Position numbers and translations under genes: made by a program. The notes under the pieces are model-generated. The model was not told the DNA's origin and did no database searches. It saw only the letters and a list, made by a program, of their open reading frames with translations. Below are positions 977 through 62,792 of a DNA stretch of 64,000 bases, piece after piece (position 1 is the stretch's first letter; each line of letters begins with the position of its first letter). Source of the stretch: Patescibacteria group bacterium. Its GTDB lineage: Bacteria > Patescibacteriota > Microgenomatia > UBA1400 > PJMF01. The stretch lies in the NCBI GenBank assembly GCA_016861205.1, contig BOKX01000001.1, positions 1,076,589 to 1,140,588 on the forward strand, given 5' to 3'.

Positions 977-1291
977 TTATCTGGTAGTGGGCGCGCCGTA
1001 GAGTTTTTTAAGAACCAACCTGTAGCCGCCCTGATTCTCTTTGAACAACCACTGTGCCACTCTGGTAACGGTAGTAGTGCTGGTGTCAGCTTGGCGGGCA
1101 ATTTCAAGGTACGGGAGAGATGTTGTCCAAAGCAGTCGGGCGATAAAGAATCGTTTTGAAAACTCAGCAATTTCAGCTGGTGTTAGCAAATCACGCAGAA
1201 AGTGTTGCACATCTGTTTCAGTTGGCAGAAGATGAAAAGCTTTTATGAGCTGTTTGGCATCTTTATCAGGGTAGGAGGTGTAGTTATTCAT
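977..1291 (-). CDS. TrpR-like DNA-binding protein, YerC/YecD family
   Basis: A 104-aa ORF. The C-terminal helix-turn-helix (TSTTTVTRVAQWL) and overall length match the small Trp-repressor-like YerC/YecD family. Confidence 0.65.
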   Translation of the reverse strand: MNNYTSYPDKDAKQLIKAFHLLPTETDVQHFLRDLLTPAEIAEFSKRFFIARLLWTTSLPYLEIARQADTSTTTVTRVAQWLFKENQGGYRLVLKKLYGAPTTR

Positions 1292-31638: not shown

Positions 31639-32574
31639 ATGGCTGTCTCGACTAAACCTGCAGTAGCGTTAGTGACCTTTCTTGAGCATCTCGAGGTTGA
31701 GCGAAATGTCAGCCGACTGACGATTCGAAACTATGGTCACTATCTGCGCCGTTTTTGTGACTGGTTCGCAACACAAGGCGGTCAGGACCTCAAGACCCTT
31801 GATGCTGATGTGATTCGCCAGTATCGCGTCTACTTGGCTCGATATGTGGATGATCAAGGCAGGACACTTTCCAAGAAAACCCAGAGCTACTATGTGATTG
31901 CACTAAGATCTTGGCTCAAGTGGTTGACCAAGCAGGATGCTCCTGTGCTCAATCCAACTAAGATTGATCTGCCGAAAGCTGAGTCGCAATCAATGAAGTT
32001 TTTAAATGTTGAGCAGGTTGAACGGTTGTTGGCGCAACCAAAGTTGTCGAGTAAAACCGGACTGCGAGACAAGGCGCTACTAGAAGTCTTGTTTTCAACC
32101 GGATTACGGGTTAGTGAACTGGTGTCACTCAATCGGGATCAAGTTGATACTAGTCGTCGTGAGTTTGGAGTGATTGGAAAAGGTCGCCGACCACGGGTGG
32201 TTTTCTTAAGTGACCGGGCCGCTGATTGGGTTAACAAATGGTTAGCGAGTCGTGAAGATAATTGGAGACCGGTATTTATTCGGCTAAGTCGCAATAAACC
32301 TGATTTGCTCAGCGATGGTGAGGATATGCGTTTAACAACTCGCAGTGTGCAGAGGTTGGTAGATACATACTGTCGGCAAGCTCGGCTGCCCGTCAAAATT
32401 AGTCCGCACGGTTTGCGGCACAGTTTTGCCACTGATCTTCTGTCGAACGGAGCTGGTCTGCGCGACGTGCAAGAAATGCTCGGTCACAAGAGTATTGCTA
32501 CCACCCAAATTTATACGCATGTCACCCGGCCACAACTTCGCAAGATTCATGGTGAGTACCATAGCAAACTATGA
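31639..32574 (+). CDS. site-specific tyrosine recombinase, XerC/XerD family
   Basis: The N-terminal core-binding domain resembles XerD. Catalytic motifs LLEVLFSTGLRVSELVSL and HGLRHSFAT...LGHKSIATTQIYTHV carry the conserved R..H..R.Y residues. Confidence 0.85.
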   Translation: MAVSTKPAVALVTFLEHLEVERNVSRLTIRNYGHYLRRFCDWFATQGGQDLKTLDADVIRQYRVYLARYVDDQGRTLSKKTQSYYVIALRSWLKWLTKQDAPVLNPTKIDLPKAESQSMKFLNVEQVERLLAQPKLSSKTGLRDKALLEVLFSTGLRVSELVSLNRDQVDTSRREFGVIGKGRRPRVVFLSDRAADWVNKWLASREDNWRPVFIRLSRNKPDLLSDGEDMRLTTRSVQRLVDTYCRQARLPVKISPHGLRHSFATDLLSNGAGLRDVQEMLGHKSIATTQIYTHVTRPQLRKIHGEYHSKL

Positions 32575-32842: not shown

Positions 32843-32916
32843 GGGCCGATAGCTCAGTTGGCTAGAGCGCCTGCATGGCATGCAGGAGGCCAGGGGTTCG
32901 AGTCCCCTTCGGTCCA
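32843..32916 (+). tRNA. tRNA-Ala (anticodon GGC), CCA encoded at 32917-32919
   Basis: GGGCCGA acceptor stem with a G3:U70 wobble, D-arm GCTC/GAGC, anticodon loop ATGGCAT, T-arm AGGGG-TTCGAGT-CCCCT, and discriminator A followed by CCA. Confidence 0.85.
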
Positions 32917-32939
32917 CCAGATATATCCCCTGATTTTTT

Positions 32940-49919: not shown

Positions 49920-50420
49920 ATGAATATTTTGGCCAGCCCGTCTACCCGCTCCACGTCACAAGGTGGTTTTACGTTACTGGAAATGTTGATTGCCACAGTG
50001 GTGATGATGATGATGACTGGCATTGGTCTGGCTTCGTACCTTCGGTTTACCGAACGTCAAACGTTGAGAAATGCCGGAAAAGAGTTGCAAACGTACATGC
50101 GAGCAGCTCAAAGTCGAGCGCGCTCGGGAGATCGTCCCACCGGCTGTGCGCAACTGTTTGGTTATGCGGTGACAGGCGCAAATGGGGGTGTTCAGATTCA
50201 GCTGTCAGCTGTCTGTGAGAACGGGGTGGAAGTGGTGACTGACACTTACACGCTTCCCTCGGGATCAACATTGGGTGGAGCTTTAGATATGACGTTTGGT
50301 AGTTTAAAAGGTGGCGTGACGGGTGCTGGCACAGTAACGCTCATTTCTGGTGCTCAAGAGTACGAATTCACAGTTAGCCAAGGAGGAGAGATCGGCGATG
50401 GTGACATTGTGGCCCAGTAA
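49920..50420 (+). CDS. pseudopilin / minor pilin
   Basis: QGG|FTLLEMLIATVVMMMM prepilin motif after a 16-aa leader. Confidence 0.6.
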   Translation: MNILASPSTRSTSQGGFTLLEMLIATVVMMMMTGIGLASYLRFTERQTLRNAGKELQTYMRAAQSRARSGDRPTGCAQLFGYAVTGANGGVQIQLSAVCENGVEVVTDTYTLPSGSTLGGALDMTFGSLKGGVTGAGTVTLISGAQEYEFTVSQGGEIGDGDIVAQ

Positions 50421-50886
50421 ACAAGTTGTCAGGCGGTTCACTGCTTCATCAGGCCAAAGTATCGTCGAGGTGCTGATTGCAGTGGCGGTGGTAGCGGTAG
50501 TACTAACCACGGTGGCTGCTGGGCTCACCTACTCCGTCAAAACGACTTCTGAAGCTCGCTATCGCGCCTTCGCTACTAACTATGCTCAGGATGCCATAGA
50601 GGTGTTTAGGCGAGAACGAGCGACTTTGGGCTGGGAGTTATTCCGAGACAACATTGAAGCTGGAACCACTTGTTTGAATACCCTGCCAGCAACGACCGAC
50701 GCTTTTGTCAACTTAACCCCGGCGGCTTGTACGGTAGGTGTCCCGATGCTTGGCATGGATTTCCGCAGAGAGGTGGTTGTCACCTTTTTGAGTCCCGATG
50801 AAATCCAAGTTGAAGCGGTGGTGAGTTGGACTGATGGGAACCGTAGCCCAGAGATTAGTGTGGTTCAACAGTTCCGGGCTTACTAG
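50398..50886 (+). CDS. pilin-like protein (atypical cleavage motif)
   Basis: SSGQSIVEVLIAVAVVAVVL is a hydrophobic pilin-type N-terminal helix with an Glu at the position corresponding to prepilin Glu+5. It overlaps the previous gene by 23 nt. The start was trimmed to MVTLWPSK. Confidence 0.45.
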   Translation: MVTLWPSKQVVRRFTASSGQSIVEVLIAVAVVAVVLTTVAAGLTYSVKTTSEARYRAFATNYAQDAIEVFRRERATLGWELFRDNIEAGTTCLNTLPATTDAFVNLTPAACTVGVPMLGMDFRREVVVTFLSPDEIQVEAVVSWTDGNRSPEISVVQQFRAY

Positions 50887-50929
50887 TCAAAAAAACAGCC
50901 TTTTTTGTGGATGTTATATCTACAAATTG

Positions 50930-51913
50930 TTAAACAGGCAGTTTGTATGTCACCCAACCTTGAGCAGCTTCTCGCCGCAACCAAATACTGAGTGTTTGGG
51001 TTGCGGTGTTAACCACAATTTTGGCAACACTTCGCTCATTGTGAAGACTATGATCAGGCCCGAGAGATTCATCGAGCAGTAGTTTTTTCAAATGTTCAGG
51101 TGTCAAGTAATTTGCGACGTGTTGTTTTGCAAATTGAAGGCGCGTATGTGTGCCCCAGATTTCCCTGCTAGAATGCCGAGAGCCGAGCAAGCAATGATTT
51201 GTGTGACAAAATGGACTCGAGGGGTTGGCAATATGTGCTGAAGAGGCTGTCAATTCAGCGTGCCAGAGCTGCCCGGTTGGACTAGCAAGTAAATGACTAA
51301 AACCAGAAGTCCTGGAAATTTGGGTTAGTTTAGCTAAGTCATGATTAGGATCATGACTGTCTAATAAATATCGTGCTTGGATTAGTTTCGGAACACCCAA
51401 CTGTTTTCGAGTGAATAACAGTGTATTTACAGCATGAACATAGCCTGCAGAATTGATCCCAATAGCCGATCCACCAGGTGTATTGTAGTAGAACAATTCC
51501 AATGTGCGATGTGAACCAATTCTCTTTTGAACAATGCAGACATCATCTTCTCCGCCAAGTACGTGATCTTCACTGTGACCGATCAGTTGTCCATCATTGG
51601 TTACTATTGTTGTGCATTTGGCACGAGCTGGTTTGTGAGGTCCGAACGCATCATCTTCAATTGAGATTGTCCATAAGTCATCGAATGACACTTCTGCCCC
51701 ATCAGCATATCCTCTAAGTTCAGAAACATACTGAGGGAAGTGCTTCTGGGCGTATGTCAGTTGTGCGTGGGCAATCTGGCAGTGGACCGGCCACTGTGTG
51801 TGCTGGTGTGCGGTTTTAATTGCTTGGTATGCTTGGGCAGCAAACTGACGGCCTATCTTGATACCTAAGTCAAAGTGATTGCGCGCGCTAAAGGCATAAA
51901 AGTGCTGATGCAT
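50930..51913 (-). CDS. C45 family peptidase / acyl-CoA:6-aminopenicillanic-acid acyltransferase-like Ntn hydrolase
   Basis: It has a candidate autoprocessing and nucleophile site AKC|TTIV, a GHSEDH box and an NTPGGSAIGIN segment typical of the C45/AAT fold. The protein is 327 aa. Confidence 0.55.
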   Translation of the reverse strand: MHQHFYAFSARNHFDLGIKIGRQFAAQAYQAIKTAHQHTQWPVHCQIAHAQLTYAQKHFPQYVSELRGYADGAEVSFDDLWTISIEDDAFGPHKPARAKCTTIVTNDGQLIGHSEDHVLGGEDDVCIVQKRIGSHRTLELFYYNTPGGSAIGINSAGYVHAVNTLLFTRKQLGVPKLIQARYLLDSHDPNHDLAKLTQISRTSGFSHLLASPTGQLWHAELTASSAHIANPSSPFCHTNHCLLGSRHSSREIWGTHTRLQFAKQHVANYLTPEHLKKLLLDESLGPDHSLHNERSVAKIVVNTATQTLSIWLRREAAQGWVTYKLPV

Positions 51914-51935
51914 ATTTCAGTATACGATACTAGGA

Positions 51936-52940
51936 TTGAGTGGTACTATCAAAAACATGCAATATCGCATATTAGGTAAAACAGGCTTGAAGGTGTCTTC
52001 AATCGGGTGTGGTACTTGGGGATTTGCTAACGACACAGACGCTTGGGTCGGTGCTACAAAAAAGGAGAGTGAGGCAGCGTTATTCTTGGCTTTAGATCAA
52101 GGTGTTAATTTCATTGATACAGCGCGCGTCTATGGTGAGGGTTTGGCGGAAGAGTGGCTCGGTGAAATGTTACAAAAAACATCACAGAAGCAAGTATTGG
52201 TTGCCACAAAGATGACACCACTTAATCAACAGTGGTCAGGTATGGTGGGTACACCAATCAGTGAGGCTTTCCCCAAACAACATATTATTGATCAAGTAGA
52301 TGCTAGTTTGCGAGCACTTCGGCGCGACTATTTGGATGTGGTTTACTTTCATGTTTGGGAAGATGAATGGAGTGATGTACCGAGTTGGAAAGAAGCAGTT
52401 ACAGAATTAACGCAGGCAGGCAAGGTTAGATTCTGGGGTATTTCTACAAATGATTTTCAACCCACTAACTGCCTGAAAGCATGCCAAACAGGACTTATCT
52501 CAGTGATTATGACTATTTTCAACATTTTTGCTCAAGAACCAATTTCAGAGCTTTTGCCAGCTGTTAAGAAAATGAATCTCGGCTTAGTAAGTCGCGTTCC
52601 TTTGGATGAAGGTGGTCTGAGTGGTTCTTACACGCATGACACAGAGTTTCCTGAGGGTGATTTTCGCCAAACCTATTTTTCCAAAGACAGATTAGTACAA
52701 CTTAATAAACATCTCGATGCTTTACGGCCACTGATCAAAAAAAGTAACGCTAAAAATGTAGCTGAGTTTGCATTGCGTTATGTTCTATCATTTCCGGAAG
52801 TCACAGTTGCGGTTCCAGGCATGCGCAGACAAAAGTATGTGATTGCCAACACTAAGGTTTCTGATTTACCGCCATTACCTCAAGGTGTCCTCGAGGAGAT
52901 GCCGAAACATGCTTGGTTCAGAAATTTTTACGATGCGTAG
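51936..52940 (+). CDS. aldo/keto reductase
   Basis: The AKR N-terminus is present (ILGKTGLKVSSIGCGTWGF ... FIDTARVYGEG) on a (beta/alpha)8 fold. Composition is visibly AT-rich relative to flanking core genes. Confidence 0.8.
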   Translation: MSGTIKNMQYRILGKTGLKVSSIGCGTWGFANDTDAWVGATKKESEAALFLALDQGVNFIDTARVYGEGLAEEWLGEMLQKTSQKQVLVATKMTPLNQQWSGMVGTPISEAFPKQHIIDQVDASLRALRRDYLDVVYFHVWEDEWSDVPSWKEAVTELTQAGKVRFWGISTNDFQPTNCLKACQTGLISVIMTIFNIFAQEPISELLPAVKKMNLGLVSRVPLDEGGLSGSYTHDTEFPEGDFRQTYFSKDRLVQLNKHLDALRPLIKKSNAKNVAEFALRYVLSFPEVTVAVPGMRRQKYVIANTKVSDLPPLPQGVLEEMPKHAWFRNFYDA

Positions 52941-55780
52941 GGATGTAGGAATCGCCTGACATAGTTTTGTAATAGGTCAAGGCTAGAAATAGAAGCAAAT
53001 TGAAGGGAATAGCCGGGACTTACTGCATTGGTTTCTGTCTCAAAAAAATGTATGCCTTTTTCTTTGAGGGCAGAGAAAAAAGGAGCTAGTTGCTTTCCTT
53101 TACCTTGCTTCAGTTGGTCCTCAAGTGTTTTCAGCCAAAGTTCAAAGGAGAGTACGCCGAGTCTTAAATTGGCTTCATCGGAGATGGTTGCAACCGCATC
53201 CGACAACTGTAGTGGCCGCTGATTCTTAAACAATATTTTCTGGTCATTGGATTGTCTTGGTGCTGTTATTGCTTGACTGACTTCATCAACAGGTACTAGA
53301 TCTAACCACCAGTTTACATTGGGAAAGTAGCCAATTTCTAGACAGCTTTGGATAAAAGACCAAAAGAAATCGTGTTCACCAAAAACTGGTCGTTCTAGTC
53401 TGGGTGTTATGGTGGCAGGTGCGACAATGTTTTGCCGATAACCCAGTTTCGAGTAATGCGCAAGTTTCTCTTCATTAATGTACTTCGTTAATTCATATCC
53501 ATCAAAATCACTCAACCTTGCCGATGAAGTTATTGATGCAGTACTGGATGATGATACGAAGGTTACCAAACTGTTTTTTATTTTTCCCGCCAAACGTAAG
53601 ATCTCGTCGAAACTTTGGACATTGACCTTTTTCAAGTCAAAATAGTCCAATAAAAAATTGACCCAGTACCCGACATGATAAATGTACTCCACTTGGTCTA
53701 CTATGATTTGTTCTGATTCTCGACTGATACCCAAATTTGGTTCAGATAAATCACCTAAAATTGGCGTGACTAGTTCCTGTGGATACCGGTCATCAAAGTA
53801 TTTGCGCCAGGTTTTTATGATTTTTTCTTCAGCAAGTGCCAATGAATTTGCTCGCGTTAAACAGTAAACGGGAGTGTCGGCACTGGTAAGCTGATGTAGT
53901 ACATGTATTCCCAGAAAACCAGTTGCACCTGTTAAAAAATGACCGGAACCAGTGCTATCTTTAGTATTTGATTTATTTGATATGAAGTCTGAGGGAAGTA
54001 AAGCATCAGATACTATGTCACGAACTAACGTTGGTTGGGTATCGGGGTTTATTGTTAGCCATGTTCTTATTTTTGATAATGAACGACCGCCATAAAACGC
54101 CTTAAGTGGAATCGGCTCCAAACCAGCGGCTTGCAGATCAAGGTTTATCATTTCAATTGTTAGGGAGTCAGCGCCATGCAGAAAAATATCATCATCAGGA
54201 TTAGTGTCAAACCTAATGTTTTTACGAAAAATTTCCAGATACGTATCAATGTTGGTTCCCGGTGTGGTTTTTGGTAATGCTTGACTTTGTAAGGTTGACC
54301 AAAGTATTTTGCCATCTGCTCGCCTTGGTATCTCATCAACAAAAACAAATTTAATTGGAAGTGTCGGAATACCACTGACGTCAACAGCTTTTTGATACAG
54401 GTTACTTATCCGTTCTGATTTTTCTGATAAAGGAGACACAATAAAACACATTAACATGGTACTCGGTGGCCGATTGACGTGTGATATGGCGATATCAATG
54501 ATCTCGGGGTCATTCCTGAAGGCTTGTTCTAACTTATATAGATCTACTCGGGTGCCATGAATTTTGACCTCTTGGTTGCTTCGGCCTGCTAATTTGTATA
54601 GACCGTTCATGCCTTTTACCACTAAGTCGCCTGTCTTCACTACACGAACGCCTTGATATTCACGAAAGTTTGTTTGTTCCATAGCTGAGAAGTACCCTGG
54701 TGAGAGACCTGCCGAAGAAATATGCAGTTCCCCAATTGTGCCGTCTGGGACCAGATTTTGTTCTTCATCAAGAACAAAAAAACGGGTCGTTCCGAAAGGC
54801 TCACCAATTGGAACAAGCTCATCCGGGGAAAGTGATTCTTCACGAATATCATGGGCAAAGAAAAGACCGTTATCGACAATAGACTCCGTAAGACCATATG
54901 AATTAAGTATCATTGCTTGTGGCCAGGTTGTCCTCAAATCTCTCATTTCTTGAACAAACCATGCTTCAGAACCAACTACGACCAGCTTAGGTTGGTGATG
55001 GTTGGCTTCTGGATTTTCACGTAAATGCCTGATAAGTTGTCGAACGTATGCGGGTGTTATGTCCAGAAAGTCAAGTTTATGCAGATTGATGTATGTAACT
55101 AGTTGATTAATGTTTCGTCTGACCGCCATGGGCACAATATGCATTGTTGCCCCGACTGAATTAACCATAAACATATCATCAAAAAAACCGGCTACGTCAA
55201 AGCCAGACATTACCAAAAACTGCTTGTAGTCTGAAATTGACATTACTTGTTGCCAAGTTTTGACCATTTCGACCCAGCCAGAATAGCTGATCAAAACACC
55301 TTTAGGGATACCGCTTGAGCCTGAGGTAAAAATAATGGCTGCAATGTCTTCGGGTAATTCAATCTGAAGTGATCTCTTGGCATTTTCACTAAATGTGCCA
55401 GTGTCAGTTTGTAGTGTTGTTATGTCTCCAACTCTTCTGACATGCTGAGCAGTGGTTAGTACAATATCGGGGTTAGTCTGGCTCAGTAGCGCATCAATTT
55501 TCTCTTGCGAAGCGGTTGGAGAGATAGGTACAAATGGCCTGCGAAGACGGGTGCAAGCCTGGGTTGCCACGAAAGCTTCAATAGAGGCCTCAAATAACAA
55601 GCCTATGATATGTCGATCCGTTCCGAGATGTTTTTCAAGGGTTGTTGCTAATTTGCTGACTCTTTCGTCTAGTTCTTGGTAGGTGAAAGATTGACCATGA
55701 TCAACGAGGGCAATGCCAGCTGGATTTTTTTTTGCAGACTGCGATAACAAATGTTCTAAATGCATATTCTGTAATTGCAA
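52928..55780 (-). CDS. NRPS-like adenylation-thiolation-reductase (A-T-R) enzyme / carboxylic-acid-reductase-like
   Basis: An adenylation domain carries cores A3 (FTSGSSGIPKGV) and A7/A8 (YKTGDLV ... GRSNQEVKIHGTRVDLYKLE). A carrier-protein domain has a Ser in LHGADSLTIEMI. A C-terminal thioester-reductase NAD-binding motif FLTGATGFLGIH follows. Composition is AT-rich. Confidence 0.75.
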   Translation of the reverse strand: MQLQNMHLEHLLSQSAKKNPAGIALVDHGQSFTYQELDERVSKLATTLEKHLGTDRHIIGLLFEASIEAFVATQACTRLRRPFVPISPTASQEKIDALLSQTNPDIVLTTAQHVRRVGDITTLQTDTGTFSENAKRSLQIELPEDIAAIIFTSGSSGIPKGVLISYSGWVEMVKTWQQVMSISDYKQFLVMSGFDVAGFFDDMFMVNSVGATMHIVPMAVRRNINQLVTYINLHKLDFLDITPAYVRQLIRHLRENPEANHHQPKLVVVGSEAWFVQEMRDLRTTWPQAMILNSYGLTESIVDNGLFFAHDIREESLSPDELVPIGEPFGTTRFFVLDEEQNLVPDGTIGELHISSAGLSPGYFSAMEQTNFREYQGVRVVKTGDLVVKGMNGLYKLAGRSNQEVKIHGTRVDLYKLEQAFRNDPEIIDIAISHVNRPPSTMLMCFIVSPLSEKSERISNLYQKAVDVSGIPTLPIKFVFVDEIPRRADGKILWSTLQSQALPKTTPGTNIDTYLEIFRKNIRFDTNPDDDIFLHGADSLTIEMINLDLQAAGLEPIPLKAFYGGRSLSKIRTWLTINPDTQPTLVRDIVSDALLPSDFISNKSNTKDSTGSGHFLTGATGFLGIHVLHQLTSADTPVYCLTRANSLALAEEKIIKTWRKYFDDRYPQELVTPILGDLSEPNLGISRESEQIIVDQVEYIYHVGYWVNFLLDYFDLKKVNVQSFDEILRLAGKIKNSLVTFVSSSSTASITSSARLSDFDGYELTKYINEEKLAHYSKLGYRQNIVAPATITPRLERPVFGEHDFFWSFIQSCLEIGYFPNVNWWLDLVPVDEVSQAITAPRQSNDQKILFKNQRPLQLSDAVATISDEANLRLGVLSFELWLKTLEDQLKQGKGKQLAPFFSALKEKGIHFFETETNAVSPGYSLQFASISSLDLLQNYVRRFLHPYAS

Positions 55781-55808
55781 AATAGTATAAAGGAGTTAGG
55801 ATGGGCTC

Positions 55809-56078
55809 ATGCAAGAAAAAATCACACCTACTGGTCCCGAAGTACTCCATGCTGAACCTGGTAATTTTATTACCAACCAAATGATGACCCTTGATGACGG
55901 CAGAATAGTACCATCTGGGACCGTTTTGGTCGATGGTGCAAATATCCTACAACTTGAAAAGGGCTTTTACCACTTTCGTGTTGCCCAATTGCCAGGTGGT
56001 GTCCATGAAAACTGTGTGGCAGTAGGTGATGAGTTCGTGTACAAAATTGTTGACAGTCCGGTAAAGCTTGTCAAGTAA
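55809..56078 (+). CDS. small hypothetical protein
   Basis: An 89-aa ORF divergent from the NRPS-like gene. Confidence 0.3.
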   Translation: MQEKITPTGPEVLHAEPGNFITNQMMTLDDGRIVPSGTVLVDGANILQLEKGFYHFRVAQLPGGVHENCVAVGDEFVYKIVDSPVKLVK

Positions 56079-56111
56079 AAAGCTAATCGGTTCCAGTTCA
56101 TTGGTTACCAA

Positions 56112-56702
56112 CTACAAACTCCTGATTTGCACTCCAGTGGAAAAGGTTTGCTCAACGATGTCTCGTGGTTGATCCACGCCGGGTGTCCCCTTGCGCAAGG
56201 TGAAGGTAACTGTCACATACTGTGAGGTAAAGTCTGAGCCGCGAGTGCAGTTGAACGTGGGTCCGCTGGTCAAAGTAATAGCCCCTGAGGTGAGGTAGCT
56301 GGAGTTCGAAGCAATTTTAGGTCGGTTGTCGCTTGGGTCGGTGGCGCGAGTCAGAATGGTGGTCTCACCGTCAATTGACTTAAGTGCCAAAGTGCCCATG
56401 CCACTTTCACAGGTTTTAATGACGTTGCCGGGTGGGGTGACAGTGTCAGTGGTTGACTCAAGTTCGATAGCATTGCGGATGAGAAAAGCCATTTGGTTGA
56501 GTGCAAAGTCACCTTCAGCTTTGACTAGCTTGGCCGTGGAAGTTTTGGTGTTACCGATCAGAAAGGTCATGAACATCGCGGTGGCTGTTAACATAATCAT
56601 GACTGACAACGTAGTTACCATCAGCAGCTCGACCAATGTAAACCCCGCCTGGCGGCGGCGGTGCGGCGAGTGGCTGCGGTGAGCTAGTTGGTTTCTTGCC
56701 AT
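56112..56702 (-). CDS. pseudopilin / minor type IV pilin
   Basis: RRQAG|FTLVELLMVTTLSVMIML prepilin motif after a roughly 20-aa basic leader. It overlaps the upstream Cys-rich gene by 19 nt. Confidence 0.65.
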   Translation of the reverse strand: MARNQLAHRSHSPHRRRQAGFTLVELLMVTTLSVMIMLTATAMFMTFLIGNTKTSTAKLVKAEGDFALNQMAFLIRNAIELESTTDTVTPPGNVIKTCESGMGTLALKSIDGETTILTRATDPSDNRPKIASNSSYLTSGAITLTSGPTFNCTRGSDFTSQYVTVTFTLRKGTPGVDQPRDIVEQTFSTGVQIRSL

Positions 56703-59065
56703 AGTGAGTAGGCTCGGGTCATGCGGGCCGGAATGTTTTCAATGAAGTCTGGTCGGAACACAAAAACTTCGGACGGGTTGGTGGCGTTTTGAGAGCCAGT
56801 GCCACCAGTTCGTAAATCACGGCTTAACGTTACGCCGGACCAGCCGATAAAGTTGCCGGCGCCCACAAATTGGCGGTCCCCACCTGTGCCGGAGGCTTGG
56901 ATGTTGATAGTGCCATTAGCAATGTAGACACCATCAAGTACCGGGCTGTTATTGGCAACTGGATTGCCAACGGTAGCATTAACAATGATGTCGCCCGAAA
57001 CGATGAAGGCTAAGAAACCACCTGGTTCCACTTCGATTAAGTGATCAACGCCAGCGGCGTTGGTGATGGTTAAATCGCCATTGATGAACACTACAATCGA
57101 TTCATCTGCTGCCACCAACCAGTCGTTGATGATTGTCACATCACCGTTGTAAGCATACGCCCGACCGTTGTCAGGGGCGGTCGCAGCATTATTGGGATCG
57201 GGTTTGACGAAATCATAAACTTGAACAGAGTCGTCATTGGTGACGATTGGTGAGCTGGTACCCATGCTGTAGAGCCGGTAAAAGTAATCATAGTTCTCTC
57301 GCAAACGAGTGGTGGCGGTTCCCCTAGCAATGAGGGCGGTGCCATCCTGATTGATGTTGGCGGTGTTCTGATTGCCCTGGGTATCTTCGACGTCTACTTC
57401 TCCTCCCGCACTGACCGCAATGCCAGCGGTGCCGGCGGTGTCATTCAAATCGCGCGCTGCTAAGTATGGGATGCAACCTACACCTGTGTCACACGTGTCG
57501 GCGGGAATATTGGAGTAAAACGATGTCCCAGTTGTGGCTCCGGTGTACGCGTTGCCGCCGCGGAACTGCCACCAAGCGGTGGTGTTTAAAACCAAGTTGG
57601 TGATGAAGTAGTTGACGCCACTTTGCGGTGAGGTCAAGCCGGCGTAACCGCAGCCTACTGTAGCCGGACATGTACAGGCATAGTTTGCACCTGGATTGAG
57701 TCCAGCGTAATTATTGGGACTTGGCCAGGATGCCCAAGGAATCCAATACGGGACAGGTTCAGAGAAGGTCCCATCATTATTGATAGCTACCACATGTGGA
57801 GCTGCATTTCTATCAAAAATACCCACAAATGACCCACTGCCGCCTTGCGTCCCGGTAGTGGTGGGACCAATACAAACTGCCCCCGGTGTAGGTTGATAGG
57901 CAGTTGCGTCGTTATCTAAATAAACCCGACCAGACAGGATTCCCGTGGCGGTGATAGTGCCTGTCACGTATGCGCCATACTCATAGGGTGGTCCACAAGA
58001 GATGTTGATTGGGCGTATGCTAAAAACGTATTCTGCGTATGGCCCTGGATAGATACTGACTGAGTTGGTGAAATTGACATTGCCACAATAGGCAACCCCG
58101 TAAATATCAAGCGAACAGTCACCGCCGACTGGATACAACTCAACCTCATATACATCAGCTGTCGAGCTGGCTGTCCAGCTAAAAGTGATGGTTCCATTAT
58201 TAGCTACAGCCACCGTCCCGTTATTAGCTGGAGTAGTGCTCAGAATACTTGGGACTCCGGTATCTGTACTGGCGCAGGTACCACCACAGCCATCAGTTTG
58301 GCCACAGGCAGACGTGCAGTTGGGGGTACAAACACCACAATTAGGGCAAGTATTATCAGCCACACAGACACTATCACAGAATTGGCCGGTGGAAATTGAT
58401 CGGTAATAGCCACTTTGTCTCTGGCAGTCATTACAAACGTCAACAGGACCACACCAATTGGTAGCAACATATTCACGATCGGCACCTTGGCAGACAGTCC
58501 CGGGATTGCTACATGATTGGGTGTTACAACTGCGAGAAGTAGAGGCACAGCCAGACGGGTTGCAACTGCGCGTTTGGATACCACCACCGCAGCTGGCGCT
58601 GCAAGCTGACCAGGCCGTGCAGTTACAAGTAGCTGGTGGGGGTTCGCAGCCGTAAGGGCTAGGTGGGTTCCACTGACAGTTCCCACCCAAAGTACCCGGG
58701 TAACAGTCCCCGGTGTTAAAGTCAGTTGCAACGCACTGACGGGCAGCATTCGTGGTGCACAGCCGACGCATTAATGTGTTGCCGCGACAGTTGTTGGAGT
58801 TGTTGCGACAACTGGGGTTAGGATGATTGGGACGACAAGAGCCATTACAAGGTGCGCCGGCTGGGCAACATGAAACCATTGGGTAACAATAAATTTCGCC
58901 ACCACAAGTACTAGTTGTGCCATCATTTTCACAGGGATCTGCGCCAGCGGTAGCCGCACTAAGTTTTCCTCTAGCACAGAAAAAAGTGAGCAGGAGTACA
59001 AACAAAGCGAAATATACCTTTTTTCTCACAGAAGTAACTATACCAGTTAAAAAATAGTCAGGCAA
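56684..59065 (-). CDS. large Cys-rich secreted protein with thrombospondin type-1-like motif and C-terminal parallel beta-helix repeats
   Basis: A signal peptide is followed by about 300 aa with more than 50 Cys, including CTAWSACSASCGGGIQTRSC, which matches the TSP1 repeat WSxCSxSCGxGxxxR. The C-terminus has Gly/Asn/Thr/Val-rich repeats (NGDVTIINDW ... FINGDLTITNAAG ... IVSGDIIVNATVGN) typical of right-handed beta-helices. Confidence 0.6.
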   Translation of the reverse strand: MPDYFLTGIVTSVRKKVYFALFVLLLTFFCARGKLSAATAGADPCENDGTTSTCGGEIYCYPMVSCCPAGAPCNGSCRPNHPNPSCRNNSNNCRGNTLMRRLCTTNAARQCVATDFNTGDCYPGTLGGNCQWNPPSPYGCEPPPATCNCTAWSACSASCGGGIQTRSCNPSGCASTSRSCNTQSCSNPGTVCQGADREYVATNWCGPVDVCNDCQRQSGYYRSISTGQFCDSVCVADNTCPNCGVCTPNCTSACGQTDGCGGTCASTDTGVPSILSTTPANNGTVAVANNGTITFSWTASSTADVYEVELYPVGGDCSLDIYGVAYCGNVNFTNSVSIYPGPYAEYVFSIRPINISCGPPYEYGAYVTGTITATGILSGRVYLDNDATAYQPTPGAVCIGPTTTGTQGGSGSFVGIFDRNAAPHVVAINNDGTFSEPVPYWIPWASWPSPNNYAGLNPGANYACTCPATVGCGYAGLTSPQSGVNYFITNLVLNTTAWWQFRGGNAYTGATTGTSFYSNIPADTCDTGVGCIPYLAARDLNDTAGTAGIAVSAGGEVDVEDTQGNQNTANINQDGTALIARGTATTRLRENYDYFYRLYSMGTSSPIVTNDDSVQVYDFVKPDPNNAATAPDNGRAYAYNGDVTIINDWLVAADESIVVFINGDLTITNAAGVDHLIEVEPGGFLAFIVSGDIIVNATVGNPVANNSPVLDGVYIANGTINIQASGTGGDRQFVGAGNFIGWSGVTLSRDLRTGGTGSQNATNPSEVFVFRPDFIENIPARMTRAYSLWQETN

Positions 59066-59079
59066 TTATTCAGATACAG

Positions 59080-61971
59080 CTATTTAATAGGGATGATACG
59101 GTCGAACTCTGGGCTCCAAGGGTCAGCCAAATTAGTCCTTAAAGACATATGGGGACTGTCTTGACCAAATACTAGCTCATTAAAAGCATCAAAATCGGGA
59201 CCACCCCAATTACCAGTAGAAAACTGTTCGATTTTACCTTGAGGGACAAGGAACATGTTTAAAATATTTCCAGAAATGCCACCAACAAAGGAAGAAAACT
59301 GGCTATTTAACCCAAATTGGAAAATATGAATGATATTTTTACCATCTGGTGTTGTTTCCACATCAGCAAATGATGTTGAACCCTGGTTATGAAGCAATCT
59401 GGATTCAGGGGTTTCCTCTCCAGCAATTGACATGCCTTGCAAGGTATCAAACACGATTTGGTCTTCGAATGGATCAAACTGAATCGTCTTAATCTCACCT
59501 TTGAAATTCATGATTCTCAATTCAAATGTTCCTCTAAACTGGAACTCGCCTGACAGAATCTGGTCAAAGGCTGGGATTTCACTACCGTCAGTTCCTCGCT
59601 CAATGTGGTCGCGAACGAGAAGGTAGTAAATAGTCTGCGCTCGCAGGTATCTCATTAACAACGCTGATTGCTCAGGATTAGCAGTGAAATCAGGGGTTAG
59701 ATTAGCCTGGTTCGAATTTGTGAACGAAATGCCGGCATCAGGGAAGTACACTAAACTGTTAGGGTTTAATGTCTCAGTAGTTTTCATGGGTACCTCAAGA
59801 CTTTGATAAGCCATGTCAGCACTAGTGAGCAGGATATCCTTTGAAATAGGTTCAACAGTAATGCCAGTCGCATCCGTTTCAGAAGGTTGGATGTTTTCTG
59901 AGGGGACTACTGGCGCTGGTGGCGTAGCCTCAGCCGACACCAAACTGGCAGGATCTGGATTTTGTTCACCTTCGCTGACCAACTCCATATTCACCCAGAC
60001 AATGCGGCCCTGTGGTTCGACCACCAAGACCCACTCGCCGTTGGCGACAATGCGACCGGTACTGGTGTCAATTTCGGTAGCAGCATCAAATAACTCACCA
60101 CGCTCAGCTTGAAGACTATCCAGCTCAGACACAGGGACAGGCCAGGCAGTTTCGTGAGGTTTGAGTGAGCCAACCGGCGTGTTGCCGGCGGCTTCTGGGG
60201 TTTCGCGCAAGTTAACTGAAGTAGTTTTGGCGTTGATCAGTGGTGTGACCCCCTCAGGATTTAGCAACATGGTATTGCTGGCGGCTAGGGCTTCATTCGG
60301 ACCATTGGGTCCGATGACCAACAATACTTTACCAGTTGAGGCTGTGCCAAGGACTTGGCGGTCTTTACTAAACAAGTGAGGTTTGACTTGCTCTAGGTCC
60401 CAGATCTCAACTCGCTCACTAGCCTCTGGTGACAGATAGCGCCACTCACCGGCTTGGTTGAACAACATGACTGTGCCAGCTGGCAGTACGAAGTCGTTAT
60501 TAAAGCGAATGGGAGTATCAGTTTGCCAGATAATGGTAGCTTTCATTTCTCCATTTTGATTGTCAAAGTACAGTCCAATTTTTTGGTCGGCGACTTGTTC
60601 AGGACTCATGACTTTTTGGTCAACAACCAGCTGCAAAATACCTTGAGCCACTTCCATAATCTCAGCGTGCAGCTGTGAGTTTTCATTGAATTTAGGCAAG
60701 CCAGCTAACGTAGTTCCGTCTTCCAGCATGTGCAGATCGCCGTACCAAAGTAAACCTTGGTCGCGATTGACAAACTCTGGCTCAGTAAGCACATGACTGC
60801 TCATGGTGTCTTTGTCGGCTTGATCAATTAAAAACTCCTGCAACAGCTGTGGTAACTGAGCGCCGTTCTGCTCTGGACTTGGGGTGCCAATTTCAGTTTT
60901 AGTTTCAGTAGCAAATTGACTGTCAAACGTGCTGGTATCTCCAGCTGATGAGCCGTCAACGATGCCGCCAAAAGTCGGTGACTCAACCTCTAGTTTTTCG
61001 CCCAGAAGTATTTCGCAGCGAGCGATGTAGTCTCGCAAAGCTGTAACATCAATACCCAGCACGGCTCGCAGGTCTTTGATAATCTGGTTGATCGTGGCGT
61101 TGTCTTGGCCATCTGGACAGACGTCAGCTTCGGTTAAGTGCTCTGCCACCTGACCTGGCATCTCTGAGCCAGCCATAGCAGTAGTAGCGATGGCGCCCGC
61201 GGCGAAGGTAGCTCCCCCGGCGGCTAGCTTTCTAGCTGTTCGACCGGTCATTAAACCACGCAGTTGGCTCAATCGATAGCGAGCCAGGCTCGGCTCGACT
61301 GGAGTTTTGAGTTGAGCTTCAACAGGTGGTTTGAGATTGGCAAAACGAGCTAGTAGTTTCTTCTCTCGGTTAGTAATATCTTGCCAGACTCCCCTTCTAA
61401 TTTGATAAATGACTTTTACAATTCGACGAAGGTAATCTTGACGTGAGTGCAACAATTTGGCAGTCACTTCTCTGCCCGACTCAATTTTGCTGATTAAGTC
61501 TTCGAGCTCTTGAGCGAGTTCGAGCTGATCAGAACTGCCTGAGTCACGAAGCCGGGCCGTATAAGCGTCGACATACATTTTGAGGGTGTCAAAATTGTCA
61601 TGAACAAACTCGACGTGTCGCAGTAGCTCTGCAGATAGATCGCGAGCTACTTCGATATCACTCAAGGTTGTCTCAGTGTTTTCCAGATCGGGAAATAGGC
61701 CAGTCAGATCCATGTGGCCTTTGAGGGCTTGCTGGAGTTCTGCTTTTAGTTGCAAAGCGAATTTTTTGAGTTCTTCAGGAGTTAAGGCATCAATTTTGTC
61801 TTTGGGGCTCAGATCAGAGCGTTGTTCAGAACCTTCAAGATTAAGGAGTCCAGTCATAACCACACCCTCTTCAGAGCCAAACCGTGTAACTTGCTGATCC
61901 GGCCCGTACCCTTTACGTTCATGTGTACTGGCATTTTTATAGACCATATCGTTTTGCCAAGCAACTGCCAC
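59080..61971 (-). CDS. large hypothetical membrane-anchored protein (963 aa)
   Basis: An N-terminal roughly 250-aa coiled-coil-like region and one TM helix (LAAGGATFAAGAIATTAMAG) are followed by a large C-terminal domain. It lies 14 nt upstream of the Cys-rich gene on the same strand. Confidence 0.55.
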   Translation of the reverse strand: MAVAWQNDMVYKNASTHERKGYGPDQQVTRFGSEEGVVMTGLLNLEGSEQRSDLSPKDKIDALTPEELKKFALQLKAELQQALKGHMDLTGLFPDLENTETTLSDIEVARDLSAELLRHVEFVHDNFDTLKMYVDAYTARLRDSGSSDQLELAQELEDLISKIESGREVTAKLLHSRQDYLRRIVKVIYQIRRGVWQDITNREKKLLARFANLKPPVEAQLKTPVEPSLARYRLSQLRGLMTGRTARKLAAGGATFAAGAIATTAMAGSEMPGQVAEHLTEADVCPDGQDNATINQIIKDLRAVLGIDVTALRDYIARCEILLGEKLEVESPTFGGIVDGSSAGDTSTFDSQFATETKTEIGTPSPEQNGAQLPQLLQEFLIDQADKDTMSSHVLTEPEFVNRDQGLLWYGDLHMLEDGTTLAGLPKFNENSQLHAEIMEVAQGILQLVVDQKVMSPEQVADQKIGLYFDNQNGEMKATIIWQTDTPIRFNNDFVLPAGTVMLFNQAGEWRYLSPEASERVEIWDLEQVKPHLFSKDRQVLGTASTGKVLLVIGPNGPNEALAASNTMLLNPEGVTPLINAKTTSVNLRETPEAAGNTPVGSLKPHETAWPVPVSELDSLQAERGELFDAATEIDTSTGRIVANGEWVLVVEPQGRIVWVNMELVSEGEQNPDPASLVSAEATPPAPVVPSENIQPSETDATGITVEPISKDILLTSADMAYQSLEVPMKTTETLNPNSLVYFPDAGISFTNSNQANLTPDFTANPEQSALLMRYLRAQTIYYLLVRDHIERGTDGSEIPAFDQILSGEFQFRGTFELRIMNFKGEIKTIQFDPFEDQIVFDTLQGMSIAGEETPESRLLHNQGSTSFADVETTPDGKNIIHIFQFGLNSQFSSFVGGISGNILNMFLVPQGKIEQFSTGNWGGPDFDAFNELVFGQDSPHMSLRTNLADPWSPEFDRIIPIK

Positions 61972-62186: not shown

Positions 62187-62792
62187 GTGCGTTACAATAC
62201 ATTTTTAATGCATATCTTTTTAGCTGCTTCAATTCACGGTAAAAGCCACTCGCTCGCTATTTATCAGGATATCGTCAATCAGGTTACGGCAGCTGGCCAT
62301 ACCATCCAGGCCGATCACTTGCTCAAAACCAGTCATGATGAGCTACAAGCTTTGCCGCATGCCGATCAGATGGCGTTTTACCAGGGTGTGATTGATGGCA
62401 TCAAACAGGCCGATGCGGTGTTCGCGGAAGTGTCTTACCCCAGTACCAGTGTCGGTTACTTGATGAGTGTGGCCATGCAGGCCAACAAACCGACGGTGGC
62501 TTTTTACAATGGCGACAAAGAACCGCACCTATTCCACTACTTGGAAAAAAACACCGATAAGCTGCAAGTGGCGCGTTACAGTAACCCTGCCGAACTCAAG
62601 CAAGAGATCAAGTTTGGGCTGGAGTTTATCACCAGCAGCCAAGATGTTCGCTTCAACTTTTTTATTTCTCCACCCCTCTCGAGCTACCTCGACTGGATTG
62701 CTCGGAGCCAAAAAGTCCCGCGCTCGGTGTACTTGCGCCAGTTGATCGACGAGGACATGGCTCACCAAGCCGAGTATCAACGGGAAGCTTAA
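62187..62792 (+). CDS. nucleoside 2-deoxyribosyltransferase-like domain fused to C-terminal ribbon-helix-helix (CopG-like) domain
   Basis: The N-terminal half (HIFLAASIHGKS ... IKQADAVFAEVSYPSTSVGYLMSVAMQANKPTVAFY) follows the NDT/Rossmann-like pattern. The C-terminal RFNFFISPPLSSYLDWIARSQKVPRSVYLRQLIDEDM matches an RHH beta-strand plus two helices. Confidence 0.45.
   Translation: MRYNTFLMHIFLAASIHGKSHSLAIYQDIVNQVTAAGHTIQADHLLKTSHDELQALPHADQMAFYQGVIDGIKQADAVFAEVSYPSTSVGYLMSVAMQANKPTVAFYNGDKEPHLFHYLEKNTDKLQVARYSNPAELKQEIKFGLEFITSSQDVRFNFFISPPLSSYLDWIARSQKVPRSVYLRQLIDEDMAHQAEYQREA

What the first reader, a model, noticed from the sequence alone, without database searches (positions are those of the whole stretch)
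50930..55780. Low-GC three-gene island: C45/acyltransferase-like Ntn hydrolase, aldo/keto reductase, and an NRPS-like A-T-R reductase
A 950-aa single-module adenylation-thiolation-thioester-reductase enzyme is unexpected in an otherwise minimal, salvage-type gene complement. The genes at 51.9-55.8 kb are visibly more AT-rich than the flanking core genes (gyrA/B, pilB), which is consistent with horizontal acquisition. Partnering with an aldo/keto reductase and a C45/AAT-like acyltransferase suggests a compact pathway. Such a pathway would activate a carboxylic or amino acid, reduce it to an aldehyde or alcohol, and then further reduce or acylate it, giving a small secreted metabolite or a lipid/cell-envelope modifier. 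Its placement between the type IV pilus locus and the giant surface-protein operon points to a role at the cell surface or in host interaction.
Basis: partly seen in the sequence, partly recalled or inferred. Interest (0 to 1): 0.7.

Follow-up and report, generated by a model that had tools for sequence, protein, structure and literature searches.

The report
Imported NRPS-like acid-reducing gene cassette
A tiny-genome Patescibacteria bacterium carries, inserted into its pilus gene cluster, a very rare 5.2-kb imported cassette. The cassette encodes an NRPS-like enzyme that reduces an activated carboxylic acid, an aldehyde reductase and an amide-forming or amide-cleaving enzyme, which together look like a small pathway to an unknown, probably positively charged, aldehyde or alcohol.

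Summary
Window 50887-56111 is a 5.2-kb low-GC block (GC 0.423 against 0.492 elsewhere; GC3 0.36-0.38 against 0.44-0.60). It holds a C45/IAT-type Ntn enzyme, an AKR11-like aldo/keto reductase, a 945-aa A-T-R NRPS-like reductase and an 89-aa orphan ORF.

It is an insertion. In about 25 related Microgenomatia ('Pacebacteria') genomes the two flanking pilin genes abut, 12 bp apart in the closest one.

The A-T-R family is tiny: five clusters among 1.84 billion protein representatives. Every member examined has the AKR convergent beside it. The third gene is the C45 in three lineages and a GNAT acetyltransferase in a fourth, where the trio is again a low-GC island, this time between rpsO and infB.

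All catalytic motifs are intact. The A domain lacks the Asp235 that binds an alpha-amino group (Ala/Cys/Thr instead) and has invariant Asp at positions 239 and 331. Its code is AGDAVGSVDK, whose last six residues match an Orn/Lys code.

Best reading: a mobile three-enzyme pathway that turns a basic carboxylic acid without a free alpha-amine into an aldehyde and then an alcohol, with N-acyl transfer. The substrate is inferred, and no PPTase was found in the window. The pilus-locus position is incidental. I class it as a new variant of a known kind, of moderate interest.

The parts
50887..56111 (.). Inserted low-GC island: four genes on alternating strands (- + - +)
   Evidence: GC 0.423 against 0.492, z = -5.8. 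In L008 and about 25 other relatives the homologues of the flanking genes 50350-50886 and 56112-56702 are directly adjacent and convergent, 12 bp apart in L008. No flanking repeats or integrase were found.
50930..51913 (-). C45/IAT-family Ntn acyltransferase or amidase, 327 aa; nucleophile Cys100 at 51614-51616
   Evidence: NCBIfam C45_proenzyme 126 bits (cut-off 85); Pfam AAT. Cys100 aligns with Cys103 of P. chrysogenum IAT, PDB 2x1d, and is invariant in 18 homologues with consensus K-C-T-T.
51957..52940 (+). AKR11-like aldo/keto reductase, 327 aa; catalytic tetrad D54, Y59, K85, H132
   Evidence: Pfam Aldo_ket_red 8.9e-48. The closest structures are B. subtilis IolS and YhdN. The tetrad is invariant in four cassettes, which are 62-63% identical. 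Its 3' end overlaps the ATR 3' end by 13 bp, convergently.
52928..55765 (-). NRPS-like A-T-R enzyme, 945 aa (adenylation, carrier, thioester reductase)
   Evidence: Pfam and NCBIfam hits. PDB sequence hits to LgrA, GrsA and MxaA. Six-member family alignment. The AF2 model and Foldseek hits are to NRPS A-T modules.
54266..55765 (-). Adenylation domain (about aa 1-500). Specificity code A192-G193-D196-A239-V263-G265-S289-V297-D298-K486, that is AGDAVGSVDK
   Evidence: MAFFT alignment with 110 canonical A domains places Ala (Cys/Thr in relatives) at the Asp235 column. D239, D331 and K517 are invariant. Core motifs A3, A5, A7, A8 and A10 are present.
54041..54253 (-). Carrier (T) domain; phosphopantetheine-attachment Ser534 in GADSL, at 54164-54166
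   Evidence: GADSL is invariant in six family members. Pfam PP-binding scores 14.9 bits for the window copy (below the 20.8 cut-off) but 36.3 bits for orthologue P0002. In the AF2 model Ser534 is at the start of a helix.
52931..53944 (-). Thioester reductase (R) domain: SDR fold with TGxTGFLG (G613-G619), Y757 and K761
   Evidence: NAD_binding_4 3.5e-37; TIGR01746 169 bits. The closest structure is the MxaA R domain, 4u7w, 5e-27, with Tyr and Lys aligned. Motifs are invariant. AF2 pLDDT is 80-95 here.
55809..56078 (+). 89-aa orphan ORF inside the island, function unknown
   Evidence: GC3 0.378, like the island. Called as a gene in L001-L003. No Pfam or PADLOC hit. Absent from the other cassettes. 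The AF2 model is unusable, pLDDT 38.
50350..50886 (+). Left flank: minor pilin-like gene, last gene of the pilB-pilT-pilC-pilD-pilin run
   Evidence: Weak matches to N_methyl and Tt1218-like (E 0.003-0.004, below Pfam cut-offs). Syntenic in relatives.
56112..56702 (-). Right flank: pilin-like gene (N_methyl), followed by the 793-aa and 963-aa Pfam-less proteins
   Evidence: Homologues of this gene and of the 793-aa protein lie directly after the left-flank gene in relatives.

Best explanation
The block is a horizontally acquired, self-contained small-molecule cassette that circulates among Microgenomatia-type Patescibacteria.

Proposed mechanism:
1. The 945-aa NRPS-like enzyme adenylates a carboxylic acid.
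2. It loads the acid as a thioester on its phosphopantetheinylated carrier Ser534.
3. Its SDR-type R domain releases the acid with NAD(P)H as an aldehyde.
4. The always-linked AKR11-like reductase takes the aldehyde on to the alcohol. This is the same two-step logic as the fungal A-T-R1-R2 glycine-betaine reductase, but split over two proteins.
5. The third enzyme moves an acyl group onto, or off, an amino group of the substrate or product. It is a C45/IAT-type Cys-Ntn enzyme here and a GNAT in one sister cassette.

The substrate is probably not a free alpha-amino acid. It is probably an acid with a basic side chain and no free alpha-ammonium, for example an N-alpha-acylated Orn, Lys or Arg, or an omega-amino or guanidino acid. 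The product would then be a small cationic N-acyl amino aldehyde or amino alcohol.

What is shown: the domain architecture, intact catalytic residues, the insertion, the gene linkage and the non-canonical specificity code. What is inferred: the reaction order, the substrate class and the direction of the C45 reaction.
For: - Architecture and intact motifs of A, T and R.
- AKR catalytic tetrad invariant.
- C45 Cys100 aligned to IAT Cys103 and invariant.
- Insertion at an otherwise empty convergent junction in about 25 relatives, with strong GC and GC3 deviation.
- ATR and AKR are convergent neighbours in all five lineages. The ATR-AKR-C45 order recurs in lineages only 40-63% identical, with different flanks.
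- In L063/L064 a GNAT occupies the third slot and shares the island's GC3: 0.26 against 0.44-0.62 for rpsO, infB and nusA. This points to acyl transfer as the common third function.
- The Asp235 column holds Ala, Cys or Thr, and D239, D331 and K517 are invariant.
- A domains lacking D235 activate non-amino-acid substrates (bioRxiv 10.1101/559534; PMC11253843).
- The code half VGSVDK equals that of the Orn/Lys code DMEDVGSVDK. Arg codes also combine an acidic residue at 239 with D331 (PMC12283262).
- The R domain is closest to MxaA.
Against: - No substrate assay exists and no characterised close homologue; the next hits are only 26% identical.
- The A4 region of the AF2 model has pLDDT below 50, so the pocket register rests on sequence alignment only.
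- No PPTase gene was found in the 64-kb window. The rest of the genome could not be searched.
- The window's T domain is below the Pfam cut-off.
- The genes alternate strands, so co-expression is not given by operon structure.
- The closest C45 homologues (61% and 46% identical) lie outside any ATR/AKR context, so the C45 could act independently.
- The AKR could instead reduce a keto group of a precursor.
Confidence: 0.55

Rival explanations
1. Free amino-acid reductase of the PvfC, HqlA, LnaA or AusA type. The A-T-R enzyme would reduce an ordinary L-amino acid to an alpha-amino aldehyde, which dimerises spontaneously to pyrazine, pyrazinone or piperazine signalling molecules. The AKR and C45 would only tailor the product.
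For: The A domain is of the NRPS amino-acid type: TIGR01733 232 bits, and the best NCBIfam models are MxcG and AusA. The structural neighbours are amino-acid A domains. That stand-alone A-T-R enzymes make such products is established knowledge (my own, not tested here).
Against: The Asp235 that binds the alpha-ammonium is missing in all five full-length family members. TIGR01733 is below its cut-off of 317. A strictly linked aldehyde reductase would compete with the dimerisation.
Confidence: 0.12
2. CAR-like reduction of a fatty or aromatic acid scavenged from the host. The resulting aldehyde or alcohol would be used for lipid or envelope remodelling, with the C45 as an acyl-CoA-dependent acyltransferase.
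For: There is no D235, as in CARs and aryl-acid A domains (10.1101/559534; PMC11253843). The A-T-R plus aldehyde reductase logic matches CAR pathways. That Patescibacteria depend on host lipids is my own knowledge.
Against: The pocket carries two invariant Asp residues (196 and 298) and an Orn/Lys-like lower half, which is unfavourable for hydrophobic acids. The NCBIfam CAR model scores 89 bits against a cut-off of 1300, and only over the R domain.
Confidence: 0.12
3. Not a working pathway. The genes were co-transferred but are functionally unrelated, or the A-T-R enzyme is inert because the host lacks a PPTase. The island would then be passenger DNA.
For: The strands alternate. No PPTase was found in the window. 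The window's T domain is sub-threshold. The nearest C45 relatives occur without ATR or AKR. No mobility genes or repeats remain.
Against: All ORFs are intact and every catalytic residue is conserved across lineages that are 37-40% identical. The ATR-AKR linkage is kept in five lineages at four different genomic sites. The cassette was fixed independently in two higher-GC genomes.
Confidence: 0.1
4. Lys2-type alpha-aminoadipate reductase, meaning primary lysine metabolism.
For: The domain order matches Lys2, and TIGR03443 gives a partial hit. The fungal C45 enzyme IAT also handles an aminoadipyl amide (my own knowledge).
Against: TIGR03443 scores 149 bits against a cut-off of 1030. Position 239 is Asp, whereas my recollection is that Lys2 has Arg there to bind a carboxylate. 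The island is absent from all close relatives and there are no other lysine-pathway genes nearby.
Confidence: 0.03

Closest known systems
Fungal ATRR glycine-betaine reductase (A-T-R1-R2; bioRxiv 10.1101/559534)
   Same: It is an NRPS-like enzyme that activates a cationic, non-amino-acid carboxylate. It lacks Asp235. It carries out two successive two-electron reductions, from acid to aldehyde to alcohol.
   Different: In ATRR the second reductase is a fused SDR domain; here it is a separate AKR. ATRR recognises its substrate with an aromatic cage plus one Glu; here there are two Asp residues and an Orn/Lys-like pocket. There is no detectable close sequence relationship. The present cassette also has a linked acyl-transfer enzyme.
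Terminal-reductase NRPS modules: MxcG (Lys-activating, myxochelin), the MxaA R domain and AusA
   Same: These are the best HMM and structure matches. They share the A-T-R order, NAD(P)H-dependent reductive release and a lower pocket of the basic-amino-acid type.
   Different: The present enzyme has no condensation domain and stands alone as a single module. Asp235 is lost. Scores are far below the equivalog cut-offs: MxcG 248 against 2300, AusA 205 against 2500.
Carboxylic acid reductases (CAR; NF041592) and Lys2 (TIGR03443)
   Same: Both are stand-alone A-T-R enzymes that need a PPTase and turn a free acid into an aldehyde. In CAR pathways aldehyde reductases convert the product onward.
   Different: The A domain here is of the NRPS type, not the CAR type. 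Scores are 89 against 1300 for CAR and 149 against 1030 for Lys2. The pocket chemistry is different.
Isopenicillin-N acyltransferase (IAT, MEROPS C45), and the Drosophila Ebony (NRPS-like) / Tan (C45 hydrolase) pair (PMC1285064)
   Same: The C45 protein shares the Cys nucleophile in C-T-T and the Ntn family. As with Ebony and Tan, an NRPS-like enzyme is paired with a C45 amide-forming or amide-cleaving enzyme that acts on small amine conjugates.
   Different: The alignment to IAT is weak (E = 2.8e-10 over residues 55-262). Lys, not Gly, precedes the Cys. Whether this enzyme is an acyltransferase or a hydrolase is unknown. Ebony has an amine-selecting domain rather than an R domain.
AKR11 family (B. 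subtilis IolS and YhdN)
   Same: These are the best structural-sequence matches, 6e-39 and 2e-31. The D-Y-K-H tetrad is present. They are general aldehyde or ketone reductases.
   Different: This is a distinct subfamily that is 62-63% conserved within the cassettes and always convergent with the ATR gene.

Membership tests
NRPS-like A-T-R carboxylate reductase (architecture class) | Adenylation domain with core motifs, including the A10 catalytic Lys | tested here: met
   AMP-binding 2e-52. FTSGSSGIPKG, NSYGLTE, KTGD and GRSNQEVKIHG are present, and K486 is invariant.
NRPS-like A-T-R carboxylate reductase (architecture class) | Carrier domain with a phosphopantetheine-attachment Ser | tested here: met
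   GADSL with S534 is invariant in six members. PP-binding scores 36.3 bits in orthologue P0002 but only 14.9 bits in the window copy.
NRPS-like A-T-R carboxylate reductase (architecture class) | C-terminal SDR thioester reductase with a Rossmann motif and catalytic Tyr and Lys | tested here: met
   NAD_binding_4 3.5e-37. TGATGFLG, Y757 and K761 are aligned to MxaA and invariant. TIGR01746 scores 169 bits, below its 213 cut-off.
NRPS-like A-T-R carboxylate reductase (architecture class) | A cognate PPTase in the genome | not testable with these tools
   None among the ORFs of the 64-kb window.
Canonical alpha-amino-acid-activating A domain (TIGR01733) | Asp235 (GrsA numbering) that salt-bridges the alpha-amino group | tested here: not met
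   The column holds Ala in the window and Cys or Thr in relatives, in an alignment with 110 canonical domains. TIGR01733 scores 232 bits, below its 317 cut-off.
Carboxylic acid reductase equivalog (NF041592) | Score above the curated cut-off | tested here: not met
   89 bits against 1300, covering only the R domain.
Lys2 alpha-aminoadipate reductase (TIGR03443) | Score above the curated cut-off | tested here: not met
   149 bits against 1030.
C45 autoproteolytic acyltransferase/hydrolase (NF040521; Pfam AAT) | Family score above the cut-off and a nucleophilic Cys at the processing site | tested here: met
   126 bits against 85. Cys100 aligns with IAT Cys103 and is invariant in 18 homologues. 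Self-cleavage itself was not tested, and the preceding residue is Lys rather than Gly.
Aldo/keto reductase superfamily | TIM-barrel AKR profile and the Asp-Tyr-Lys-His tetrad | tested here: met
   Pfam 163 bits against 24. D54, Y59, K85 and H132 are invariant.
Genomic island (horizontally acquired) | Deviant composition together with an empty site in relatives | tested here: met
   z = -5.8 for GC and a clear GC3 shift. The flanking genes are adjacent in about 25 relatives.
Genomic island (horizontally acquired) | Mobility genes or flanking repeats | tested here: not met
   No integrase and no significant direct or inverted repeats at the borders. A large serine recombinase lies next to the cassette only in L049.

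The most novel reading that the evidence does not exclude
The cassette makes a host-directed effector. An episymbiotic, ultra-small Patescibacteria cell would convert an N-acylated basic amino acid into a cationic N-acyl amino aldehyde, a leupeptin-like argininal or lysinal warhead. The AKR would serve as self-protection or an off-switch. Alternatively, the product is an N-acyl amino alcohol used as a surface or lipid modifier. Either would be a first defined specialised metabolite pathway native to, and exchanged within, the CPR.
Probability: 0.1. Interest if true: 0.75.

Novelty: new variant of a known kind. Interest (0 to 1): 0.5.

Why it matters
Patescibacteria (CPR) are known for extreme metabolic reduction, and their chemistry toward hosts is almost unknown. 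This is a complete, motif-intact, three-enzyme small-molecule cassette. It is restricted, as far as public data show, to a handful of Microgenomatia lineages, and it has been inserted independently into at least two genomes. Its adenylation code is uncharacterised: no Asp235, and two invariant Asp residues in the pocket.

At only about 5 kb it is directly testable by heterologous expression. A result would give both a new A-domain specificity and a first handle on what a CPR bacterium makes or modifies. If the substrate turns out to be mundane, the finding is still a clean example of gene-cassette exchange within the CPR.

Tried and rejected
- An exact-sequence look-up with the TTG-start ORF failed. 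I had taken the wrong start and the wrong stop side. Protein P0001, which starts at the ATG at 55765, worked.
- The JGI metagenome scan with the family alignment returned only four unrelated NRPS loci. The GFFDDMF and HDFFWSF pattern hits were coincidental.
- In the exhaustive representative search the top list is swamped by multi-module NRPSs with summed scores. Only single-stretch full-length hits were taken as family members.
- The search for border repeats, att sites, promoters and terminators found nothing above shuffled expectation.
- The AF2 model of the 89-aa ORF had pLDDT 38 and was discarded without a fold search.
- The AF2 model of the ATR has pLDDT below 50 for residues 106-213, so it could not settle the pocket register. 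Foldseek only re-found NRPS A-T modules.
- The gapped alignment that matches the window's 'FD' to the canonical FD motif was rejected. The Asp is Asn in the four relatives that cover this region, and the multiple alignment prefers the ungapped register.
- A defence-system reading was checked against PADLOC, with no hits.
- A search for the A-domain code in the supplement of PMC12283262 found nothing.
- Literature searches for the source run accessions found only that ERR10905742/3 are anaerobic-digester sludge.
- No paper was found that describes this cassette or NRPS-like enzymes in CPR.

Full report
**1. What is there**

The region holds four ORFs on alternating strands:
- a 327-aa C45 protein at 50930-51913 (-);
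- an aldo/keto reductase (AKR) at 51936-52940 (+), whose real start is the ATG at 51957, giving 327 aa;
- a 950-codon ORF at 52928-55780 (-), whose real start is the ATG at 55765, giving 945 aa;
- an 89-aa ORF at 55809-56078 (+).

The corrected starts follow from orthologue alignments and from the genes called on identical Logan contigs.

Profile searches give these assignments:
- The first protein matches Pfam AAT (3.6e-13) and NCBIfam C45_proenzyme (126 bits, cut-off 85).
- The second matches Aldo_ket_red (8.9e-48).
- The large protein matches AMP-binding (2e-52) and NAD_binding_4 (3.5e-37). Its best NCBIfam models are MxcG, the amino-acid adenylation domain, AusA and the thioester-reductase domain.

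The 89-aa ORF matches nothing.

**2. Composition**

The block 50887-56111 has GC 0.423 against 0.492 for the rest of the window. It is the lowest of all 5.2-kb windows, z = -5.8. GC3 of the four genes is 0.355-0.384, against 0.44-0.60 for flanking genes. The block also includes the C45 gene and the small ORF.

**3. Organism and insertion**

The window encodes salvage enzymes (UPRTase, a purine/uridine phosphorylase-family protein, GMP synthase), SHMT, FolD, QueA and TGT. It also encodes gyrA, gyrB and a type IV pilus set: pilB, pilT, pilC, a pilin, pilD and minor pilins.

PilC relatives in GTDB genomes are Patescibacteria, variously labelled 'Pacebacteria', Microgenomates or Paceibacterota. 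The best matches are 85% and 75% identical.

In about 25 of these genomes the gene order pilB-pilT-pilC-...-(homologue of 50350-50886) is followed directly, and convergently, by the homologue of 56112-56702 and then of the 793-aa protein. The gap is 12 bp in L008, the closest long contig. None of these loci contains any of the island genes.

The island is thus an insertion exactly in a convergent intergenic junction, and it truncates neither neighbour. No integrase or border repeats remain. The same junctions are present in three independent assemblies, so it is not a chimera.

**4. Rarity and linkage**

Among 5.8 billion clustered proteins the A-T-R enzyme has only two relatives above 26% identity, besides itself: P0002 and P0003, both 40% identical.

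An exhaustive HMMER pass over 1.84 billion representatives adds P0142, P0156 and the partial P0188. That makes five family clusters in all. Everything else in the list is multi-module NRPS. The JGI metagenome scan found no member.

The contexts of the family members are as follows:

| Lineage | Arrangement | Neighbours |
|---|---|---|
| L004/L049/L050 | ATR, convergent AKR (63%), then C45 (51%) | large serine recombinase in L049 |
| L052-L054 | ATR 3' fragment (not confirmed by tblastn), AKR (62%), C45 (51%) | pyruvate kinase |
| L005/L006 (anaerobic digester sludge, PMC10541625) | ATR, then AKR; the contig ends there | not known |
| L065 | ATR, then AKR; the contig ends there | not known |
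| L063/L064 | ATR, AKR (62%), then a 171-aa GNAT in the third slot | between rpsO and infB-nusA |

In L064 the trio has GC3 of 0.27, 0.33 and 0.26, against 0.62, 0.50 and 0.44 for rpsO, infB and nusA. This is a second, independent low-GC insertion. Its host is again Microgenomatia, because the best named IF-2 hits are Pacebacteria, Woesebacteria and Patescibacteria. In L049 and L052 the cassette matches its 35-39% GC surroundings, which makes them plausible donor-like lineages.

The closest C45 homologue (61% identical) and another at 46% lie without ATR or AKR. More distant ones sit beside GNAT plus aminotransferase, or beside methyltransferase plus radical-SAM genes.

The conclusions are:
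- ATR plus AKR is an obligate pair.
- An acyl-transfer enzyme is a recurrent but exchangeable third member.
- The cassette moves between genomes.
- Its position in the pilus cluster here is incidental.

**5. Catalytic competence**

- **A domain.** Motifs A3 (FTSGSSGIPKG), A5 (NSYGLTE), A7 (KTGD), A8 and A10 (PRRADGK, K486) are present, and the key residues are invariant in the family.
- **T domain.** GADSL with S534 is invariant. The window copy scores 14.9 bits on PP-binding, below the 20.8 cut-off, while orthologue P0002 scores 36.3 bits. In the AF2 model S534 starts a helix, as expected, though at modest confidence.
- **R domain.** TGATGFLG, Y757 and K761 are invariant and align with the MxaA R domain (4u7w, 5e-27). 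AF2 pLDDT here is 80-95.
- **AKR.** D54, Y59, K85 and H132 are invariant. The nearest structures are AKR11 IolS and YhdN.
- **C45.** Cys100 aligns with the IAT nucleophile Cys103 and is invariant in 18 homologues. The preceding residue is Lys rather than Gly.

**6. Specificity code**

The family A4 region reads GF[D/N][V/F][A/C/T]GF[F/V]DDM[F/L]. The 'FD' that the eye picks out is Asn in the four relatives that cover this region. It also lies two residues upstream of the canonical position.

An L-INS-i alignment with 110 canonical A domains, and the ungapped phmmer alignment to LgrA-A1, both put Ala192 (Cys or Thr in relatives) in the Asp235 column.

The full code is A-G-D-A-V-G-S-V-D-K in the window and [A/C/T]-G-D-A-[V/I]-G-S-[V/I]-D-K for the family.

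The published literature bears on this in three ways:
- A domains without Asp235 activate non-amino-acid substrates such as aryl, keto, hydroxy or betaine acids (bioRxiv 10.1101/559534; PMC11253843).
- The lower half, VGSVDK, is identical to that of the Orn/Lys signature DMEDVGSVDK.
- Arg codes combine an acidic residue at 239 with Asp331 (PMC12283262).

I therefore infer a substrate with a basic side chain but without a free alpha-ammonium. This is an inference from alignment only. The AF2 model is unreliable for residues 106-213.

**7. Mechanism proposed**

The proposed steps are adenylation, thioesterification on holo-S534, and NAD(P)H-dependent release as an aldehyde by the R domain. These steps follow from the established chemistry of the A-T-R architecture.

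The AKR then reduces the aldehyde to the alcohol. This is inferred from the invariant linkage, and from analogy with the fused R1-R2 of ATRR and with CAR plus aldehyde-reductase pathways.

The C45 or GNAT transfers or removes an N-acyl group. This is inferred from the non-homologous replacement in L063 and from the known chemistry of IAT and of Tan (PMC1285064). If N-acylation happens before activation, that would also explain the loss of Asp235.

**8. Rivals**

- A free amino-acid reductase that gives pyrazines or piperazines is disfavoured by the missing Asp235 and by the linked aldehyde reductase.
- CAR-like reduction of fatty or aryl acids is disfavoured by the two invariant Asp residues and by the model scores (89 against 1300).
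- A Lys2-type function is disfavoured by the score (149 against 1030) and by the accessory distribution.
- An inert passenger remains possible until a PPTase is shown to exist. It is disfavoured by full motif conservation and by the repeated linkage.

**9. Comparison and novelty**

The cassette works like known A-T-R carboxylate reductases. It fails the curated cut-offs of every named equivalog (MxcG, AusA, CAR, Lys2) and also a defining feature of amino-acid A domains. I found no paper that describes it.

It is best described as a new variant of a known kind: an orphan, CPR-restricted A-T-R family with an uncharacterised code, fixed partnership with an AKR, and an exchangeable acyl-transfer partner.

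Interest is moderate. The chemistry class is familiar. What raises the interest is the host lineage, the rarity, the clean evidence of transfer and the ease of testing.

Noticed in passing
window 29951-31639: About 1.7 kb without any ORF of 75 aa or more on either strand. GC is 0.43-0.45, the second-lowest region of the window. There is no Rfam hit at gathering score and only a chance-level hit at E = 0.33. It lies just upstream of a XerC/D-like tyrosine recombinase (31639-32574) and tRNA-Ala(ggc) at 32843-32919. It could be a degraded insertion or an undescribed RNA.
   Followed up: partly
window 56684-59065 and 59080-61971: Two large proteins (793 and 963 aa) with no Pfam domain. The 793-aa protein has homologues (26-38% identical) directly next to the pilin genes in about 25 related genomes, so it belongs to the conserved pilus cluster (possibly a tip or adhesin component) rather than to a separate surface-protein operon. 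The 963-aa protein found no homologue in those loci.
   Followed up: partly
L049:2828-5216 (Logan SRR26638130): In one sister lineage the ATR-AKR-C45 cassette lies next to a large serine recombinase (Resolvase, Recombinase and Zn_ribbon domains), an HTH_17 excisionase-like gene and a SpoVG gene. This may be the mobile element or prophage that carries or neighbours the cassette.
   Followed up: no
L055:8450-11347 and L057:9397-12664: More distant C45 homologues (37-39% identical) in other Patescibacteria-like contigs sit in different small-molecule-looking neighbourhoods. One has an aminotransferase, a GNAT, the C45, a cupin and an ABC transporter. The other has a methyltransferase, the C45 and a radical-SAM enzyme. 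This suggests the C45 family is a recurrent tailoring enzyme in these bacteria.
   Followed up: no
L008 (DASPLQ010000012.1), and many CAY*/CAZ* loci among L007-L043: Public record titles call these contigs 'Vitreimonas sp.' or 'uncultured Pseudomonadales'. Their pilus locus and IF-2 are clearly Patescibacteria-like, which suggests mislabelled taxonomy in the source records.
   Followed up: no
window 62187-62792, and L001:1175-1756: Two nucleoside 2-deoxyribosyltransferase-like genes (weak Pfam hits) flank a 351-aa protein with weak methyltransferase matches, downstream of the pilus cluster. This is a nucleoside-salvage feature that was not examined further.
   Followed up: no
window 977-1291 (-): A small ORF of 104 aa with a clear Trp-repressor family hit (4.9e-15). 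This is unexpected in a genome that presumably lacks tryptophan biosynthesis.
   Followed up: no
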